This document shows, piece after piece, positions 46,688 to 52,567 of a stretch of 64,000 nt of DNA. Position 1 is the stretch's first letter, and every line of letters starts with the position of its first letter. This DNA is from a virus (lineage: Duplodnaviria; Caudoviricetes). Where the stretch lies: IMG/VR virus record IMGVR_UViG_3300028832_000096; one strand, 5' to 3'. Under the pieces are notes generated by a model, which saw only the letters and a program-made list of their open reading frames with translations, searched no databases and was not told where the DNA came from. Both the position numbers and the translations under genes were made by a program.

Positions 46688-47791
46688 TTACTCCTGGAAT
46701 GCAAGAACAATTGAGAGGTTATCTGTCCAGAAAACGCTACCAGACAATTCACCTTCGTTGTAAACAGGTCCAATCTTAATCTTATCACCGTCTACGCTAG
46801 AGAAAATTGATTTAAAGAAAGAGGACTTGAAGTCACCTGAATAATTTTCAAGTTCGCCTGTCTTTGTGATGTCTACCTTAAAGTCACCAGAACCTCTGTT
46901 AAGTGTGAGGGTATTTCCTTCTACCTTAAAGAATGTAGAAGTATCCTGTGCAGTAGCAACGATATCTGCCTGATTAAGGAACTTATTGATAGGTGCTACG
47001 TCAACTTCGATGTATGACTCAGGTGTCTTAAGCGTTTCCAGAATAGTATCGGAATTGTAATTACCAACGCCTTCATCATCCTCATATTCAGGAATGAACT
47101 GAGAAGTAAGGACATAACCATCGGTATCTACTGTTAAGACATAACTGTTGTCTACTTTCTTAATCTTTGAACCTTCAGGAAGATTAGTAAACAGATTGAT
47201 GATAGTAGGATTAAGGAGGCAAGTAGAACCAAGATTCGACTTATTAGACAATGTAAAGATTACGTTGTCAATATCACCTATGATTACCTTACCATCCTGA
47301 CCAATCCAAACCTTAGTGTAAACTGGGTGAATCATCCAGATAGAAATTGCGAACATCTGATGCTCTTTAACGAACTTCCAATCTCCGGACTTCAACTCAA
47401 TGCTATTACCTTCAGCAGTAGTTGTAGGTCTGTTAAGCGAAAGGTTATTTGCATCGAGGAGTTTAGGGAGTGTAAACTTACTAGAACCTGAATGCAAAAC
47501 AATTCCGCCTTCAATGAAGTCGATAGATGTGATATCCTTGTCGAAAGAATCAATGAGCTGCCTAAGCAGTGCACAATCTACAAAGATTGTTTCTGATGTA
47601 TCAGAATCTCCAGAACCCTTGAGTACAATCTCTGTATAGATTGAAGGAGCCTCAATATTGATTCTAAGATTTTCTCTTGTTGCAGTAACCTGAGCCAAGC
47701 AGCTCTTCTGGTTGAACTTGCTGATGTTTTCCTTGATAATACCAAGGTCAATGGCATTCTGCAAGGGCTTAGTGGACAATGTGAATTTCAT
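46688..47791 (-). CDS. Sliding clamp (beta-clamp-like)
   Basis: 367 aa, MKFTLS start, three-domain beta-clamp-like pattern, next to polymerase and loader. Confidence 0.7.
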   Translation of the reverse strand: MKFTLSTKPLQNAIDLGIIKENISKFNQKSCLAQVTATRENLRINIEAPSIYTEIVLKGSGDSDTSETIFVDCALLRQLIDSFDKDITSIDFIEGGIVLHSGSSKFTLPKLLDANNLSLNRPTTTAEGNSIELKSGDWKFVKEHQMFAISIWMIHPVYTKVWIGQDGKVIIGDIDNVIFTLSNKSNLGSTCLLNPTIINLFTNLPEGSKIKKVDNSYVLTVDTDGYVLTSQFIPEYEDDEGVGNYNSDTILETLKTPESYIEVDVAPINKFLNQADIVATAQDTSTFFKVEGNTLTLNRGSGDFKVDITKTGELENYSGDFKSSFFKSIFSSVDGDKIKIGPVYNEGELSGSVFWTDNLSIVLAFQE

Positions 47792-47817
47792 GTTGACTTC
47801 TCCTTTATGGTTTATTT

Positions 47818-50233
47818 TTAATTAATTACATCGCCGTTAACTCTGTGATGAATGTTATCTACGAAATCTGAAGGTGATATCTTATATTTGTGAATATAAT
47901 CATACATTGCGTCTTCTACTTCCTTTGACCAAGTACCATTTACACCTAATGCAGCATCGCCTATCGGCTTCTTACCGTCTTTATCTTTATAGACCGGTAA
48001 CGTATATTCGCACTCAAATAAGTGATACTGTATCCATTTGATTTCTGATTCAGATAATGTATCTAACGAACCAAAGTTGATGTTAGGCTGCTCATATGAA
48101 CAAGGGAAACTTAATCCGTACCACTTATAAGTTATTTCAACATCACAACTGATAGGGAATGGCAAGAAGTTACCTGCCTCGCTCATCATCTTACCTAAGA
48201 TTTCTGATGCTCTAATAGCATTTCTGATAGGAACTTCTGCAATTATTTCATCATGTACAGGAAGTAATACTTTTGCTCCAAGCTGTTCCCACTCCTTGTT
48301 ACTAAATACTTTAAGCATCGCCATCTTAGTAAGGTCAGCAGCTGAGCCTTGAATTATACTGTTTACACATTTTCTAGAAGCATCAGTAATCTTTCTAGAA
48401 TTATTGATTACTTTGATGTGTTCATCTTGTAAACGCTTTGTTGCCTTTACTACCTGGCCATAATACTTATAGTTATTGAATTCTTCCTCGAGCTTCTTAA
48501 CGATTCTTTCAGGAATTTCATTCTTATTATTAAGTGTTGAAGGGTCAAGTGGGTCAATATCAGGATTTATATATCCCTTAGCGGCCTTAAATTCATAAGG
48601 TTTCAACTGCATATCAGGAATGTGCCTACGCCTACCTAATATAGTTTCAACATAACCATATTTACGAGCATCGCTTTGTGCTTTAATCATGAATGCTCTA
48701 AGATTAGGGAAAGCATTCAGAACTGCGTCATATATAACTTGAGCTTCTTTAGTGCGTTGCTCATCAGTCATCTGTTTATTCCCGCCAAATAACTGGTCAC
48801 CAATAGTTTTTGTAGACCTTCCGTAAAGAATACCTAATACTATGCTTTTTGCTTGACTTCTGCGCTCCTTACCTTCTCTGTTAACTTCATCTGTTTTATT
48901 TCCGTTTGCATCGAAGAAATGTTCGGAACACTCTTCATAAGTTTTGTTGAAAGCAAGTGCTGCAATAGTAGAATAGATGTCTCTATTATGTTTAAAAGCA
49001 TCTATCATATTCGGGTCCGAACTGACAAACGCTGTCATTTTTGGTTCTTGTTGCTATCTTAGTTATGTGCTCGTTACGCACTTCTCTTGTTACCAAGAGT
49101 GTCGGACTATCTCTTGAATACTATATACTGTTACTATATACAGTAAGCCCTGGCATTTCCATTTAACAGATTTACTATAGACTATTATCATCTATAAACT
49201 GACCGACTTCGGCTGTACCCTACTTGCTTGGTTATCTCAATCTACCTGAATTCTCATTTACATATTTCTATGATTGTAGATTTTTAGCTTTTGGTAGTCT
49301 CTACACACGATAGACCCATTTTAACCCTTTGATGTATTTGTCAAATTTAGCAGATTCTTTAATTTTGTCGTTTAATTGGTCGCTAGATTTAACGGTTCCA
49401 TAACCATTAGCATACCACCAATTAGCAGCATCTTTGACACGCTCAAACTCAGCTACAAAACTGCCTTGTGTATCAATACAATAAACGCATTTGTTTTTTG
49501 AATCATTTAACGCTTTATAATGTGCTTCGCTAAGTTTAAAAGATTTCCTAAATTTTGCCCTAACTTCTTGACCTTTTTCAGAAGCATATAAAGCTTTTCG
49601 GCTATCAGATAGATGTTTTTTATGCTCTTTAGAAGGCCCACCTCTATCTTTATATGATTGCTTCATTGATTCCGAAATGCGTTTACGGACATCTTCGCTA
49701 CGCATTATATTATCATGCTTTTCTTTTACTATTACAGAATACATTGTATTTATTGACCCTCCAGGAGCCATATTGTATCCATTTCTTATAGTATCATATT
49801 TAGCAATATAATATGCTTCGAGTTCATTGAGCGTATCTTGGTCCTCCACTTCAGCAATAATTTGAAAGTGAAATTTGTCCCATCCGTACTTTCGCATTGC
49901 ATTATACAAATGAGTATTGACGTCAGACACCATGCTATTTCGATGCCCATCTATTCGTTCTTTCAATGTTTTAGTGGTTTGACCAATATACAATTTGTCA
50001 TTTACATCATTGGTTATCTTATATATCAACATATTCGGCACCTCCAAGATATATTAAAGGTTATTCCCAACAAGTTGATAGTCTATCTTGCTCGGTATTG
50101 TCTCTCTAACGAACCTTATTAGAAAGAGTTCACCGACTTAACCAGGTTTTACTACAGCCAACACTTAACTGTAGTCAGCAGACAACATCACGCAAGGTGG
50201 AGTCATCACTGGAATTTGAAATTTCTTTGACAA
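47818..50233 (-). CDS. Family A DNA polymerase, C-terminal subunit; spliced exon 1 50233-50168, exon 2 49053-47818 (about 433 aa)
   Basis: TTG start 8 nt after AAGGAGGT; MSKKFQIPVMTPPCVMLSADYS|QQEPKMTAF restores motif A; motif B RSQAKSIVLGILYG; motif C VHDE. Confidence 0.8.
49301..50032 (-). CDS. Intron-encoded GIY-YIG homing endonuclease
   Basis: LIYKITN...LYIGQT...R...H...E...GYN; GGAGGT RBS before ATG 50032. Confidence 0.9.
   Translation of the reverse strand: MLIYKITNDVNDKLYIGQTTKTLKERIDGHRNSMVSDVNTHLYNAMRKYGWDKFHFQIIAEVEDQDTLNELEAYYIAKYDTIRNGYNMAPGGSINTMYSVIVKEKHDNIMRSEDVRKRISESMKQSYKDRGGPSKEHKKHLSDSRKALYASEKGQEVRAKFRKSFKLSEAHYKALNDSKNKCVYCIDTQGSFVAEFERVKDAANWWYANGYGTVKSSDQLNDKIKESAKFDKYIKGLKWVYRV
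50057..50062 (-). promoter_or_regulatory. AACCTT motif inside the group I intron
   Basis: AACCTTTAATAT about 25 nt upstream of the GIY-YIG ORF. Confidence 0.55.
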
Positions 50234-51722
50234 TTCTCCATACCTCCTTTCCTTCTTCTAATAATTTTATTGTATCGCCAACAACTAGGTCTTCTACATC
50301 TTTTTGTCCAACACTAGTTGTTACACTATACCATCTATTTAACGATATACAAACTGTATCATTAGATTCTTGATAATCAGCATCTAAAAGTATCTTCTTA
50401 GCAGGAGTTGCTCGGAACTGATGCCTAATATCAAGAGCGTGTGAGGGAATCTGCTGTACGTTCGGTTCAGAACTTGACATACGTCCAGTATCTGCGCCGA
50501 TGCTTTTGAAGGTTGCATGGATTCTTCCATCCTTGCCGACTTCATTAGGAAGCTTATCAACAAATGCGTTGAGCAATTTGTTTAACGCCCTAACTTTCAA
50601 TATTTGATTTGTTACAGGAAGATTTAATTCAGTTAATGTAGCTTTATCTCCTGATGATACATCACAATGTAGGAAGTTGTTTAACAGATATGTAACCTGT
50701 TTTGGACTTGCTTCATTAAAAGCTGCACCGTTCTTAAAAGGAGATTTAGATACAGTTATTGCATCGGAATTATCCATAATTTCTTGAATAATTTCAGAAA
50801 GTTTGTTTAATTCCTCTTGATATTTTTTATCATATTTAATTTTCAATATATCTCTGATGTTCTTATCAAAGTATACACCAGTGCGATGCATTAAAGCACA
50901 AACGCGAATCATCGGGATTTCAATATTCCAAATGAGGTCTGCGATTTTCTCTAACTTATGTTTTTGACATTTCGGGTGAGTCTTTGTTACATAAGGTAAC
51001 TGCCAGAAGAACAATTCATAAGTTATCTTAGCATCGTTTGCAGCGTATAACTTTGCTACATCTGTAGGGCAGTAAGGAAATAACTTAGGACTAAAGAAGT
51101 CTGAGAAAGATTTTGGGTCGCCTTTGCCTTTCTTTACATATTTCATGTAAAGTGCTTTCAAGCGGTTATCTAACTCATCTTCTTTGATACAACGCCATGC
51201 GGTGATGACATCGTAATAACAAACAGGGATTAAATCTACTTTGAGGTCCTTGTATATCATTGCTAAGTCGAAGTCAGCATTAGCAAAAATCATTTTAGTT
51301 TTTGCTTCAACAAAATATGCTAACTCCGAACCAAGGTCTTCATATGAAACTTGATTTTCATAAGGTACTTCGAATACTGGAGCAAGATGTTTGCATGGTA
51401 TGTAGCATTCTACTCCGCCAGGATAATAAAGCGAAGCACCTACAATTGTATCATGCACCCTATCAAGTCCAGTAGTCTCTGTATCTATTGCACAATAACC
51501 ACTTTCAATTGCTTTTAAAACATATTCATGTAACTGCGCCTTACTCGTGATTAATATAGCCGGACTATCTTTAAAATATTCTTGAACAGCTTTGATGGAT
51601 TCTTGTATCTCATGCTGAGAAGAAGTTACACTTTTAGAAACCTTTATAGGTTTTAGAACTTCCTTAGACTTTTCAGCGATAGCATTGATTTCGTCCATCT
51701 TAGCTTGACTGAATAGACCCAT
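50175..51722 (-). CDS. Family A DNA polymerase, N-terminal subunit (3'-5' exonuclease, thumb) with Hint-like C-terminal tail
   Basis: AIDTETTGL, ANADFD, YAANDA, TGRMSSSEPNVQQIP, FRATP, then SLNRWYSVTTSVGQKDVEDLVVGD and stop. Confidence 0.85.
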   Translation of the reverse strand: MGLFSQAKMDEINAIAEKSKEVLKPIKVSKSVTSSQHEIQESIKAVQEYFKDSPAILITSKAQLHEYVLKAIESGYCAIDTETTGLDRVHDTIVGASLYYPGGVECYIPCKHLAPVFEVPYENQVSYEDLGSELAYFVEAKTKMIFANADFDLAMIYKDLKVDLIPVCYYDVITAWRCIKEDELDNRLKALYMKYVKKGKGDPKSFSDFFSPKLFPYCPTDVAKLYAANDAKITYELFFWQLPYVTKTHPKCQKHKLEKIADLIWNIEIPMIRVCALMHRTGVYFDKNIRDILKIKYDKKYQEELNKLSEIIQEIMDNSDAITVSKSPFKNGAAFNEASPKQVTYLLNNFLHCDVSSGDKATLTELNLPVTNQILKVRALNKLLNAFVDKLPNEVGKDGRIHATFKSIGADTGRMSSSEPNVQQIPSHALDIRHQFRATPAKKILLDADYQESNDTVCISLNRWYSVTTSVGQKDVEDLVVGDTIKLLEEGKEVWRIVKEISNSSDDSTLRDVVC

Positions 51723-51749
51723 TGTGTATCCTCGTCAAACGTAAAGTTC

Positions 51750-51771
51750 GGGCAGTATATGAATACTGCCC
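51750..51771 (-). terminator. Hairpin after the SSB gene (weak terminator or processing site)
   Basis: GGGCAGTAT/ATACTGCCC perfect stem, poor U-tract. Confidence 0.45.
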
Positions 51772-51793
51772 TACCAGGACTTAACCTATGATA

Positions 51794-52567
51794 TTAGAAA
51801 GTTGCAGGAGGAAGTTCTCCGCCTTCTCCTTCGTCATCATCTGCTGTAAAATCTTCCGTGGGTGCCGGAGCATCAGCAGGTGTAAAGTTTACATTTACAG
51901 TCTCTTCGCTAGAAGCATTTACAGAAGAAGTATCAACAAAAGTTTCAGGGATGGACGACTGATATCCTGCTCTAGGAATAGGTGTATATTCAGGAAGACT
52001 TGAAGCAGATTCATTACCAGAATTCTGGAGCATCTTAGATAATTCGGAAATAGAAACATCTCGAATAATCTCGGAATAATAATCAGGCATCTTAGCGTTG
52101 AACTTAGCAAGAATCTCTGCGTAAGAACCAATTGTATTCTTACCAATAGCTTCAATGCTATATGTAGTGTTGATGTCATTAGGAATACCGTGACGAGTTA
52201 TTCTGAATACAAACTCAGACGGATTAGGGAAACGACTGAATACGTCTTTCTCAAGCTGAGGTTCAAACTTCATAGTTCTATCCCAGAACTGAATTTCACC
52301 TATACCATCGTTAGCGTTAATGTTAAAAACAGGGACAAAAAGCTTGGTTTGCACTCTGATGCCTTTGCTGCAAGCAGGGCAACCCTTATCGCAACAATGT
52401 ACATAACCTGAATAATCTGCTGACTTGATGTAATGTCCCTGAGCAACAAGCATGTCCTTCATCGACTGATAAAGGAATACAACATCTGCGCTTTCACCAT
52501 CGTTGATGAGTCTAAACAGCCCATGATACCTATCATCATTGAACTGAGCTACGGACTTAAATGCCAT
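51794..52567 (-). CDS. Single-stranded DNA-binding protein (gp32-like)
   Basis: H...C...CPAC, FWDR, FRITRHG...TTY, acidic tail ending in F. Confidence 0.75.
   Translation of the reverse strand: MAFKSVAQFNDDRYHGLFRLINDGESADVVFLYQSMKDMLVAQGHYIKSADYSGYVHCCDKGCPACSKGIRVQTKLFVPVFNINANDGIGEIQFWDRTMKFEPQLEKDVFSRFPNPSEFVFRITRHGIPNDINTTYSIEAIGKNTIGSYAEILAKFNAKMPDYYSEIIRDVSISELSKMLQNSGNESASSLPEYTPIPRAGYQSSIPETFVDTSSVNASSEETVNVNFTPADAPAPTEDFTADDDEGEGGELPPATF

What the first reader, a model, noticed from the sequence alone, without database searches (positions are those of the whole stretch)
50168..50410. PolA naturally split at motif A into two overlapping genes joined by a Hint-like remnant
Seen: after FRATP the first ORF continues about 75 aa (KKILLDADYQ..., then SLNRWYSVTTSVGQKDVEDLVVGDTI, resembling intein block A) and stops at 50175. 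The true motif A (TPPCVMLSADYS) lies in the +1 frame, opened by a TTG 8 nt after a perfect AAGGAGGT. The intron does not explain this break. The second chain has no intein C-terminal (H)N-C/S/T signature. The Thr-Pro codons (ACTCC) and a motif-A-like strand appear on both sides. Inference: a two-chain PolA that assembles non-covalently, perhaps through a degenerate split-intein-derived module; a +1 frameshift is the alternative.
Basis: partly seen in the sequence, partly recalled or inferred. Interest (0 to 1): 0.8.

Follow-up and report, generated by a model that had tools for sequence, protein, structure and literature searches.

The report
Phage DNA polymerase in two chains
This uncultured rumen/gut phage encodes its family A DNA polymerase as two separately translated proteins, broken just before the catalytic motif A inside a small inserted beta-barrel that weakly resembles a dead intein; many related phages share the break, so it is an inherited way of living with a gene broken by a mobile element, not an error.

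Summary
ORF1 (51722-50175, minus strand) runs 75 residues past FRATP and stops. Motif A lies in the +1 frame, behind a perfect AAGGAGGT, 8 nt and a TTG.

It is not an assembly error. Of the 120 best protein clusters, 97 end in the same roughly 75-aa tail.

It is not a frameshift. In 21 distinct split loci, chain 2 starts at the same homologous position (10 TTG, 10 ATG, 1 GTG), nearly always behind a Shine-Dalgarno site. It lies in frame 0, +1 or +2, from 68 nt inside ORF1 to 1.9 kb downstream. Homing-endonuclease genes fill the larger gaps.

A few relatives carry the same insert in frame as one chain. Many have no insert, and none of those is split.

The tail is under purifying selection (dN/dS 0.08-0.32). 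It folds as a beta-barrel whose last strand is the N-terminus of chain 2, so docking in trans is plausible but inferred.

Intein ancestry has moderate sequence support. Structural support is inconclusive, and no splicing residues are conserved.

This is a new variant of HEG-fractured genes. This scan reached the same reading earlier on another genome (e1-5666477).

The parts
50175..51722 (-). [quoted passage not shown]
   Evidence: Pfam DNA_pol_A_exo1 (E 1.9e-11) and DNA_pol_A (E 7e-24). Exo I, II and III motifs and TGRMSS..PNVQQIP are present.
50178..50402 (-). Lineage-specific insertion (tail) domain, residues 441-515: beta-barrel strands 1-8, weakly Hint-like, no splicing residues
   Evidence: Alignment A2. 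AF2 model of an in-frame homologue, core pLDDT about 91. dN/dS 0.08-0.32. Hint_2 hits in 7 of 28 members. hhalign against clade inteins P 4.5e-5.
50242..50249 (-). Shine-Dalgarno site AAGGAGGT of chain 2, lying inside the Lys-Glu-Val codons of ORF1
   Evidence: Nearly all of the 21 split loci have such a site 5-12 nt before the start. It is absent at this place in the single-chain relatives.
50231..50233 (-). TTG start codon of chain 2
   Evidence: the homologous start is TTG in 10 loci, ATG in 10 and GTG in 1. L001/L013 has an unambiguous ATG (MTKYQIPIITSPYVMMSSDYS) after a 1.8-kb endonuclease gene.
50168..50233 (-). Chain 2, exon 1 (22 codons): N-terminal strand SKKFQIPV, Thr-Pro, and the motif A strand CVMLSADYS
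   Evidence: In the AF2 model of the in-frame homologue the equivalent QIKHET is the last strand of the insert barrel.
50175..50233 (-). 59-nt dual-coding overlap of ORF1 and chain 2. The ORF1 stop lies inside the Ala-Asp codons of motif A
   Evidence: Overlaps of 56-68 nt recur in 10 loci (window, L018, L019, L022, L025, L031, L039, L067, L074, L075).
49054..50167 (-). Group I intron between DYS and QQEPK. It is context for the break, not its cause
   Evidence: The boundaries follow from intron-less relatives that read SSDYSQQEPK. Rfam gave no match.
49301..50047 (-). GIY-YIG homing endonuclease gene inside the intron
   Evidence: Pfam GIY-YIG E 3.7e-11. phrog_314 homing endonuclease E 1e-32.
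47818..49053 (-). Chain 2, exon 2 (411 codons plus stop): fingers and palm with motif B (RRSQAKSIVLGILYG) and motif C (VHDE)
   Evidence: DNA_pol_A E 4.7e-43..

Best explanation
The phage's family A DNA polymerase is a gene in pieces.

[quoted passage not shown] Chain 2 (433 aa after intron splicing) is translated on its own from a TTG behind a strong ribosome-binding site that lies inside the end of ORF1. It carries motifs A, B and C.

The two chains are not rejoined by frameshifting, RNA splicing or protein splicing. They most likely associate non-covalently. In this model the first strand of chain 2 (SKKFQIPV) completes the barrel at the end of chain 1, so that the motif A strand sits where it does in an unbroken enzyme.

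The insert and break probably began as an intein-like element fractured by a free-standing homing endonuclease. The endonuclease gene is still present in some relatives and has been lost in this window. The insert-bearing segment still moves between phages by recombination.

Shown: two genes, conserved start signals, variable frame and spacing, endonucleases in the gap, purifying selection on the tail, and a recombinant patch around the insert.
Inferred: assembly in trans by strand complementation, intein ancestry, and activity of the heterodimer.
For: 1. The break is inherited, not an error. 97 of the 120 best clusters end in the tail, and identity runs down to about 55%.

2. There are three states at FRATP / motif A among about 70 IMG/VR loci:
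- no insert, always one chain;
- insert in frame, one chain (L015-17, L023, L073);
- insert plus split.

3. Chain 2 starts at the same place in 21 distinct split loci, 12-14 codons before the motif A strand, nearly always behind a clear SD 5-12 nt upstream. Its offset to the ORF1 stop runs from -68 to +1942 nt, and its frame offset is 0, 1 or 2. The single-chain forms have no SD or start codon there.

4. The genes in the gap are homing endonucleases: phrog_3339 at E 5e-98 and 2e-104 (L013, L052) and HNH at 2e-27 (L079).

5. The tail has dN/dS 0.08-0.32 in four clean pairs.

6. The AF2 model of the in-frame insert has pLDDT 83 (core about 91) and nine strands. The break maps to the loop at residues 84-92, and the last strand (93-98) equals the chain 2 N-terminus.

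7. Intein likeness: Pfam Hint_2 in 7 of 28 tails (best E 0.0016); gp41-1 intein in a PDB profile search at E 0.17; blastp against the clade's own PolA mini-inteins at bit scores up to 32; hhalign P 4.5e-5 against at least 0.048 for shuffled or reversed controls; structural alignments to about 12 inteins in the same register.

8. Mobility: the state is patchy on the tree, with at least 5-7 changes. L025 (split) and L040 (no insert) are 95-100% identical over 7.5 kb, except for a 1.8-kb patch of 68-86% identity centred on a 208-nt insertion.

9. All catalytic motifs are intact.
Against: - No protein-level data exist. Neither the association of the chains nor the activity of the enzyme was tested.
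- Only single chains could be folded, so strand complementation rests on a single-chain homologue. The full-length model was poor around the junction.
- Fold searches do not single out inteins. Membrane-fusion-protein barrels and the N-terminal barrels of F1/V1 ATPases score the same (Z 6-7), and Foldseek found nothing significant.
- No relative with a complete intein at this exact site was found.
- The Thr-Pro codons flanking the insert look like a short duplication, which classical intein insertion does not produce.
- The recombinant patch could reflect ordinary mosaic recombination rather than endonuclease-driven homing.
Confidence: 0.78

Rival explanations
1. The inserted barrel is not intein-derived. 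It is a generic small beta-barrel acquired for another purpose, such as DNA, clamp or partner binding. The gene merely broke in one of its surface loops when an endonuclease gene landed there, and the chains are held together mainly by the polymerase's own palm and thumb interfaces.
For: Fold matches to membrane-fusion-protein barrels (Z 6.7-6.9) and to F1/V1/HerA N-terminal barrels (Z about 6.2) cover the whole domain, as well as or better than inteins do. Foldseek found nothing significant. No splicing residue is conserved. Single-chain relatives keep the insert, so it is tolerated or useful in the mature enzyme. In Aeh1 NrdA the tails are not needed for heterodimer formation itself (section heading in PMC3045599).
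Against: Sequence similarity to the N-terminal lobe of real inteins from the same polymerases is well above shuffled controls and is in the same register as the structural alignments. Hint_2, Hint or Vint are the commonest Pfam hits among the tails. No split occurs without the insert. Endonuclease genes sit exactly inside the domain, as in fractured split-intein loci.
Confidence: 0.35
2. A programmed +1 ribosomal frameshift, or translational bypass, joins the two frames into one polypeptide. The AAGGAGGT acts as a stimulator, as in prfB.
For: The two frames overlap by 59 nt. A strong SD-like sequence lies within the overlap, and ACTCC is repeated on both sides.
Against: In relatives, chain 2 is in frame 0, +1 or +2 and can lie up to 1.9 kb away behind another gene. 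In L021 the ORF1 stop precedes the chain 2 start, and the window shared by the two frames is only a few nucleotides, with no slippery codon. The SD-to-start spacing of 5-12 nt fits initiation. The start codon is conserved as ATG, TTG or GTG.
Confidence: 0.03
3. The module is a still-active, atypical split intein, and protein trans-splicing ligates the halves and removes the insert.
For: There is weak Hint similarity. A subclade has His at the penultimate place and Thr at +1 (..IKH[KRE]|TP).
Against: No Cys or Ser is conserved at any candidate N-terminal junction: the residue after FRATP is A, S, P, E, Q or K. There is no TxxH and no terminal Asn. The window reads ..PVM|TPP. The whole module is about 85-95 aa, below any known intein. 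In-frame relatives have the same non-catalytic sequence, so they must function with the insert retained.
Confidence: 0.04
4. The break is a sequencing or assembly indel, or the polymerase is a decaying pseudogene.
For: A single-base frame difference is the commonest assembly artefact.
Against: The identical protein is on record from two contigs. 97 of 120 related clusters share the tail, which is under purifying selection. All catalytic motifs are intact, and start signals are conserved.
Confidence: 0.02

Closest known systems
[quoted passage not shown] 2009, PMC2677866)
   Same: The order is collinear: enzyme N-part plus N-module, then endonuclease gene, then C-module plus enzyme C-part (seen in L013, L052, L079). 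That paper's model predicts later loss of the endonuclease, leaving adjacent or overlapping halves as in this window. The start codon and RBS of the downstream half lie at the edge of the invading element. The host is a replication enzyme.
   Different: The module here has none of the splicing residues and is about 85-95 aa. Its C-part is a single strand of about 10 residues. The host is a family A polymerase, which the passages read of that paper did not mention among the fractured host genes. The halves must work without ligation. The same module also exists unbroken and in frame in some relatives.
Aeromonas phage Aeh1 nrdA split by mobE, with element-derived tails essential for activity (Friedrich et al. 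2007, from memory; Crona et al. 2010, PMC3045599)
   Same: An essential enzyme gene is broken by a free-standing homing endonuclease. There are two separately translated chains and no splicing. Extra sequence at the new C- and N-termini is proposed to act in assembly.
   Different: It is a different enzyme. The tails there are short and unique, not a folded barrel. Here the extra domain also occurs in unbroken genes, is widespread (97 of the 120 best clusters), and in this window the endonuclease has gone.
Split family B polymerases: gp43 of some T4-like phages (Petrov et al. 2006), Nanoarchaeum equitans PolB with a split mini-intein, and Methanothermobacter PolB (all as cited in PMC2677866)
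   Same: A replicative DNA polymerase is encoded as two genes, sometimes with an endonuclease gene between them or an intein at the break.
   Different: They belong to family B, not A, and are broken at other places. N. equitans ligates its halves by trans-splicing.
Split family A polymerases of T7-like cyanophages of clade B (exonuclease and polymerase in separate ORFs; PMC12695635) and of MEP401-type OM43 phages (PMC10580990)
   Same: A family A phage polymerase is encoded in two ORFs.
   Different: In the cyanophages the break is at the exonuclease/polymerase domain boundary. Here it is inside the polymerase domain, 12 codons before the catalytic Asp of motif A, within an inserted domain.

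Membership tests
Family A DNA polymerase (Pol I type) with 3'-5' exonuclease | Pfam DNA_pol_A and DNA_pol_A_exo1 above their gathering scores | tested here: met
   ORF1: exo1 44.5 bits (cut-off 23.6) and DNA_pol_A 84.9 bits (cut-off 34.3). Exon 2: DNA_pol_A 148 bits.
Family A DNA polymerase (Pol I type) with 3'-5' exonuclease | Exo I-III motifs and polymerase motifs A (DYS), B (RxxxKxxxxGxxYG) and C (VHDE) intact | tested here: met
   The Exo motifs are on chain 1. Motifs A, B and C are all on chain 2.
Intein / splicing-competent Hint domain | Conserved N-terminal nucleophile (Cys/Ser1) and block B TxxH | tested here: not met
   Alignment A2. No conserved Cys or Ser at any junction candidate, and no TxxH. 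Only the Leu of the DL dipeptide is nearly invariant, and the downstream GD is common but not conserved.
Intein / splicing-competent Hint domain | C-terminal His-Asn followed by a Cys/Ser/Thr nucleophile | tested here: not met
   The window reads ..PVM|TPP. One subclade reads ..IKH[KRE]|TP, with His and Thr but no Asn.
Intein / splicing-competent Hint domain | Significant match to Hint profiles | tested here: inconclusive
   Hint_2 is matched by 7 of 28 tails, best E 0.0016. For the window's own tail it scores 12.6 bits against a gathering score of 28.4. hhalign against the clade's intein N-parts gives P 4.5e-5, probability 69%, and controls at 0.048 or worse.
Intein / splicing-competent Hint domain | Hint fold | tested here: inconclusive
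   Inteins score Z 6.0-6.6 (rmsd 2.1-2.6 Å, 60-64 residues aligned), tied with other barrels at Z 6.2-6.9. Foldseek best E 0.048.
Fractured gene (Dassa et al. 2009) | [quoted passage not shown] | tested here: met
   Met in relatives L013/14, L052, L071/76 and L079. In the window itself the endonuclease gene is absent and the halves overlap, which corresponds to the loss stage of the published model.
Fractured gene (Dassa et al. 2009) | The halves carry the two parts of an active split intein | tested here: not met
   See the intein rows above. The module lacks the catalytic residues.
Programmed ribosomal frameshift or bypass | Conserved shift site and a fixed frame relation between the two ORFs | tested here: not met
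   The frame offset is 0, 1 or 2 and the distance runs from -68 to +1942 nt.
Genes in pieces with assembly tails (Aeh1 NrdA type) | Each piece has its own translation signals, and the extra termini are needed for assembly or activity | not testable with these tools
   The translation signals are shown. The need for the tail and the N-terminal strand requires biochemistry or a multimer prediction.
Group I intron (context) | Match to the Rfam Intron_gpI model, and exon junctions that restore the conserved protein | tested here: inconclusive
   Rfam gave no match. Junctions at 50167 and 49054 restore DYS|QQEPK, as in intron-less relatives.

The most novel reading that the evidence does not exclude
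The insert is a natural, splicing-dead split intein that evolution has kept as a non-covalent clamp. On this reading, a fractured-gene cassette (Hint N-lobe, homing endonuclease, last Hint strand) invaded PolA next to motif A and lost catalysis. It now both neutralises the break it caused and still spreads between phages by recombination around the site. That would be a missing stage between contiguous inteins, split inteins and plainly split genes, and a ready-made set of small natural heterodimerisation tags (about 75 aa plus about 10 aa).
Probability: 0.4. Interest if true: 0.75.

Novelty: new variant of a known kind. Interest (0 to 1): 0.62.

Why it matters
A replicative polymerase that is cut 12 codons before its catalytic aspartate, yet conserved in that state across a large clade of roughly 120-250-kb rumen and gut phages, shows how essential genes survive fragmentation by selfish elements.

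If the tail and the first strand of chain 2 dock as proposed, three things follow:
- It would be a family A counterpart of the Aeh1 NrdA solution.
- It would be a possible end-state for split inteins that have lost splicing.
- It would offer dozens of diverged natural pairs usable as small protein-complementation modules.

There is also a practical point. Gene callers and annotation pipelines will report these polymerases as truncated or frameshifted. Surveys that use PolA as a marker gene will miscount or misalign this clade.

Tried and rejected
- Megablast of the locus against GenBank phages found nothing. The best protein-level hits are Clostridium and Bacillus phages at about 31% identity.
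- Rfam with permissive thresholds found nothing over 47500-52000.
- Foldseek against the PDB gave no significant match.
- VIA-align, both the wide search and the second look, gave only tied middling scores.
- The ESM Atlas look-up with the tail returned only PolA clusters.
- A search among longer proteins for a complete intein at this site found only one more split form carrying an upstream LAGLIDADG intein.
- The full-length single-chain AF2 model (pLDDT 74, pTM 0.41) was too poor around residues 396-444 and 501-542 to say how the insert sits on the palm.
- No whole genome is held for this window, so I could not check whether this is the only polymerase.
- The idea that ILLDADYQ is the real motif A and TPPCVMLSADYS a relic was rejected. 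Pfam and tblastn do extend through ILLDADYQ. However, DADY is confined to one subclade, while the second copy is universally conserved and continuous with QQEPK.
- The idea that the 205-208-nt insert is a small intron was rejected, because it evolves as protein and is read in frame in single-chain relatives.
- DNA identity profiles of the window against L013 and L017 showed no clear recombination patch. Only the L025/L040 pair did.
Full report
**What is in the window.** The polymerase lies on the minus strand.
- ORF1 (51722-50175, 515 aa) carries a 3'-5' exonuclease domain and the first part of the family A polymerase domain (Pfam). It reads ...DIRHQFRATP, continues for 75 more residues, and stops at TGA 50177-50175.
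- One base out of frame, the sequence reads ...FQIPVMTPPCVMLSADYS. This frame is opened by TTG (50233-50231), 8 nt after a perfect AAGGAGGT (50249-50242).
- The group I intron with its GIY-YIG gene begins only at 50167 and ends at 49054. Exon 2 (49053-47821) starts QQEPKMTAF, which restores the DYS|QQEPK seen in intron-less relatives.
- Chain 2 is therefore 22 + 411 = 433 aa and holds motifs A, B and C. Chain 1 holds Exo I-III and TGRMSS..PNVQQIP.
- All four perfect AAGGAGGT sites in the window lie 6-9 nt before a start codon on the coding strand. The other three open long ORFs.

**It is neither an error nor a pseudogene.**
- A search of 5.8 billion proteins found the identical ORF1 on two contigs (longest 193,604 bp) and more than 1,300 relatives.
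- Of the 120 best clusters, 97 end in the same kind of tail, 13 have no insert, and 2 carry the insert in frame.
- The tail evolves as protein, with dN/dS of 0.08-0.32 in four clean pairs.

**It is not a frameshift.** I fetched about 70 related loci from IMG/VR and classified them. Three states exist at FRATP / motif A:
- no insert (FRATPGYVMLSSDYSQQEP), always one chain;
- an 85-100-aa insert in frame, one chain (L015-17, L023, L073);
- insert plus split.

Among 21 distinct split loci, chain 2 always begins 12-14 codons before the motif A strand. The consensus is M-S-K-[YWF]-x-[IVL]-x-[VI]-x-T-P-x-Y-V. The start codon is TTG in 10 loci, ATG in 10 and GTG in 1, nearly always behind a clear Shine-Dalgarno site 5-12 nt upstream.

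The distance to the ORF1 stop runs from -68 to +1942 nt, and the frame offset is 0, 1 or 2. In L021 the ORF1 stop even precedes the chain 2 start. The single-chain forms lack the SD and the start codon at that place.

Where the gap is large, it holds homing endonuclease genes. A roughly 600-aa family (phrog_3339, E 5e-98 and 2e-104) occurs in L013/14 and L052, with a look-alike ORF by sequence in L071/76. An HNH enzyme occurs in L079. These facts fit two independently translated genes and exclude recoding as the general mechanism.

**What the tail is.** An alignment of 28 distinct inserts (A2) shows a diverged, strand-rich domain with little conserved beyond ..DL.vGD.v. No Cys or Ser is conserved at either junction, there is no TxxH, and there is no terminal Asn, so protein splicing is excluded on sequence.

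AlphaFold2 on an in-frame homologue (L023) gave a confident all-beta model of nine strands (mean pLDDT 83, core about 91). The split forms are broken in the loop at residues 84-92. The last strand, 93-98 (QIKHET), corresponds to the N-terminus of chain 2. This is the basis for proposing that chain 2 completes the barrel of chain 1 in trans. It is an inference, since only single chains could be folded and the full-length model was poor near the junction.

**Is it a Hint remnant?** The evidence is mixed.

For:
- Hint_2 is the commonest Pfam hit among the tails (7 of 28, best E 0.0016), and Hint and Vint also appear.
- A profile search of PDB sequences lists the gp41-1 intein at E 0.17.
- Genuine inteins sit elsewhere in these same polymerases, at TGRM|C..HN|SS and GAD|C..HN|TGR. 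Their N-terminal 55 residues align to the tails: blastp bit scores reach 32, and hhalign gives P 4.5e-5 against 0.094 for the reversed profile and at least 0.048 for 30 column shuffles.
- About a dozen inteins appear in the top 50 of an all-against-PDB structural search (Z up to 6.5). They align intein residue 1 to model residue about 27 and the intein C-terminus to about 98, which is the same register as the sequence alignment.
- A subclade keeps ..IKH[KRE]|TP, reminiscent of HN|T.

Against:
- Membrane-fusion-protein barrels and F1/V1/HerA N-terminal barrels score equally (Z 6.2-6.9).
- Foldseek found nothing significant.
- No complete intein at this site turned up.

I put intein ancestry at roughly even odds.

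**Mobility.** On a tree of the N-terminal 440 residues the states are interleaved, with at least 5-7 changes forced by well-supported branches. L025 (split) and L040 (no insert) are 95-100% identical over 7.5 kb. The exception is a 1.8-kb patch of 68-86% identity centred on a 208-nt (3n+1) insertion flanked by the Thr-Pro codons. The insert-bearing segment has therefore been exchanged between nearly identical phages. This is what endonuclease-driven co-conversion would produce, though ordinary recombination is not excluded.

The motif A neighbourhood is a hot spot for mobile elements. Inteins lie upstream, this cassette sits at FRATP, and a group I intron at DYS|QQEPK is found in many relatives with or without the insert.

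**Comparison with what is known.** The architecture matches the fractured genes of Dassa et al. (PMC2677866). There, split-intein halves flank a free-standing endonuclease, and the authors' model predicts later loss of the endonuclease. Here, however, the module cannot splice.

Functionally it most resembles Aeh1 NrdA, which was broken by mobE and whose element-derived tails are essential (PMC3045599).

Split family B polymerases are known. So are family A polymerases split at the exonuclease/polymerase boundary, or with a small ORF inserted (PMC12695635 and PMC10580990). I found no report of a family A polymerase broken before motif A within a Hint-like domain. The library searched is incomplete.

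This scan had already reached the same reading on a related genome that has the endonuclease in the gap (e1-5666477). My analysis was done before I saw that note and agrees with it.

**Verdict.**
- Two chains: very likely.
- Assembly by strand complementation: plausible.
- Intein ancestry: about even odds.

This is a new variant of a known kind, of moderate to good interest.

Noticed in passing
Relatives P0004, P0007, P0008, P0020, P0051, P0054-57; loci L059-L080: Genuine inteins interrupt the same polymerase at two or three other sites about 25-30 residues upstream of FRATP. At TGRM|C..HN|SS there are mini-inteins of 138-142 aa, or about 333 aa with an HNH domain. At GAD|C..HN|TGR there are inteins of about 381-385 aa with a LAGLIDADG domain. 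A third type sits at TGRMS|C. They occur together with the split tail.
   Followed up: partly
L001:5548-7368, L052:4695-6500, L071:5802-7262: A free-standing homing endonuclease of about 600 aa sits exactly between the two PolA halves in L001 (same contig as L013) and L052. It has N-terminal CxxC zinc ribbons, matches phrog_3339 (E about 1e-98 to 1e-104), and in L001 matches Pfam DUF7487 plus a weak Mom-like hit. A look-alike ORF by sequence lies after chain 1 in L071. It may belong to the Vsr-like family that Dassa et al. found in fractured genes; this was not tested.
   Followed up: partly
window 50175-50233 and the same place in L018, L019, L022, L025, L031, L039, L067, L074, L075: The 56-68-nt overlap codes in two frames. 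The last strand of the chain 1 barrel (STLRDVVC, ASVCFDV) is the out-of-frame reading of TPPCVMLSAD / TPAYVLMSS of chain 2, and the ORF1 stop lies inside the motif A codons. In non-overlapping relatives the two strands are encoded separately, yet the sequences look alike (APNNLITFKIV versus APYASVCFDV). This is unexplained.
   Followed up: no
window 50199-50203 and 50404-50408; L025:4300-4560: The insert is flanked by the Thr-Pro codons (ACTCC) on both sides and has a length of 3n+1 (205 nt here, 208 nt in L025 relative to L040). It looks like a short target duplication, which intein homing does not make.
   Followed up: partly
window 50370-50399: The first strand of the tail reads ILLDADYQ, which Pfam's DNA_pol_A model and tblastn align as motif A. 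This mimicry is confined to the window's subclade; elsewhere the sequence is DDCTET or similar. It may be chance, or gene conversion between the two strands.
   Followed up: partly
window 49054-50167 and many loci (L019, L022, L031, L034, L037-39, L042, L049, L055, L062, L063, L067, L075, L080): The group I intron at DYS|QQEPK is widespread and independent of the insert/split state. Rfam does not detect it in the window, probably because the 747-nt endonuclease ORF sits in a loop.
   Followed up: partly
L036:4506-5018: In one relative the gap between the PolA halves holds a 160-170-aa ORF matching phrog_18716 (unknown function) and, more weakly, a dATP/dGTP pyrophosphohydrolase-like family, rather than an endonuclease.
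   Followed up: no
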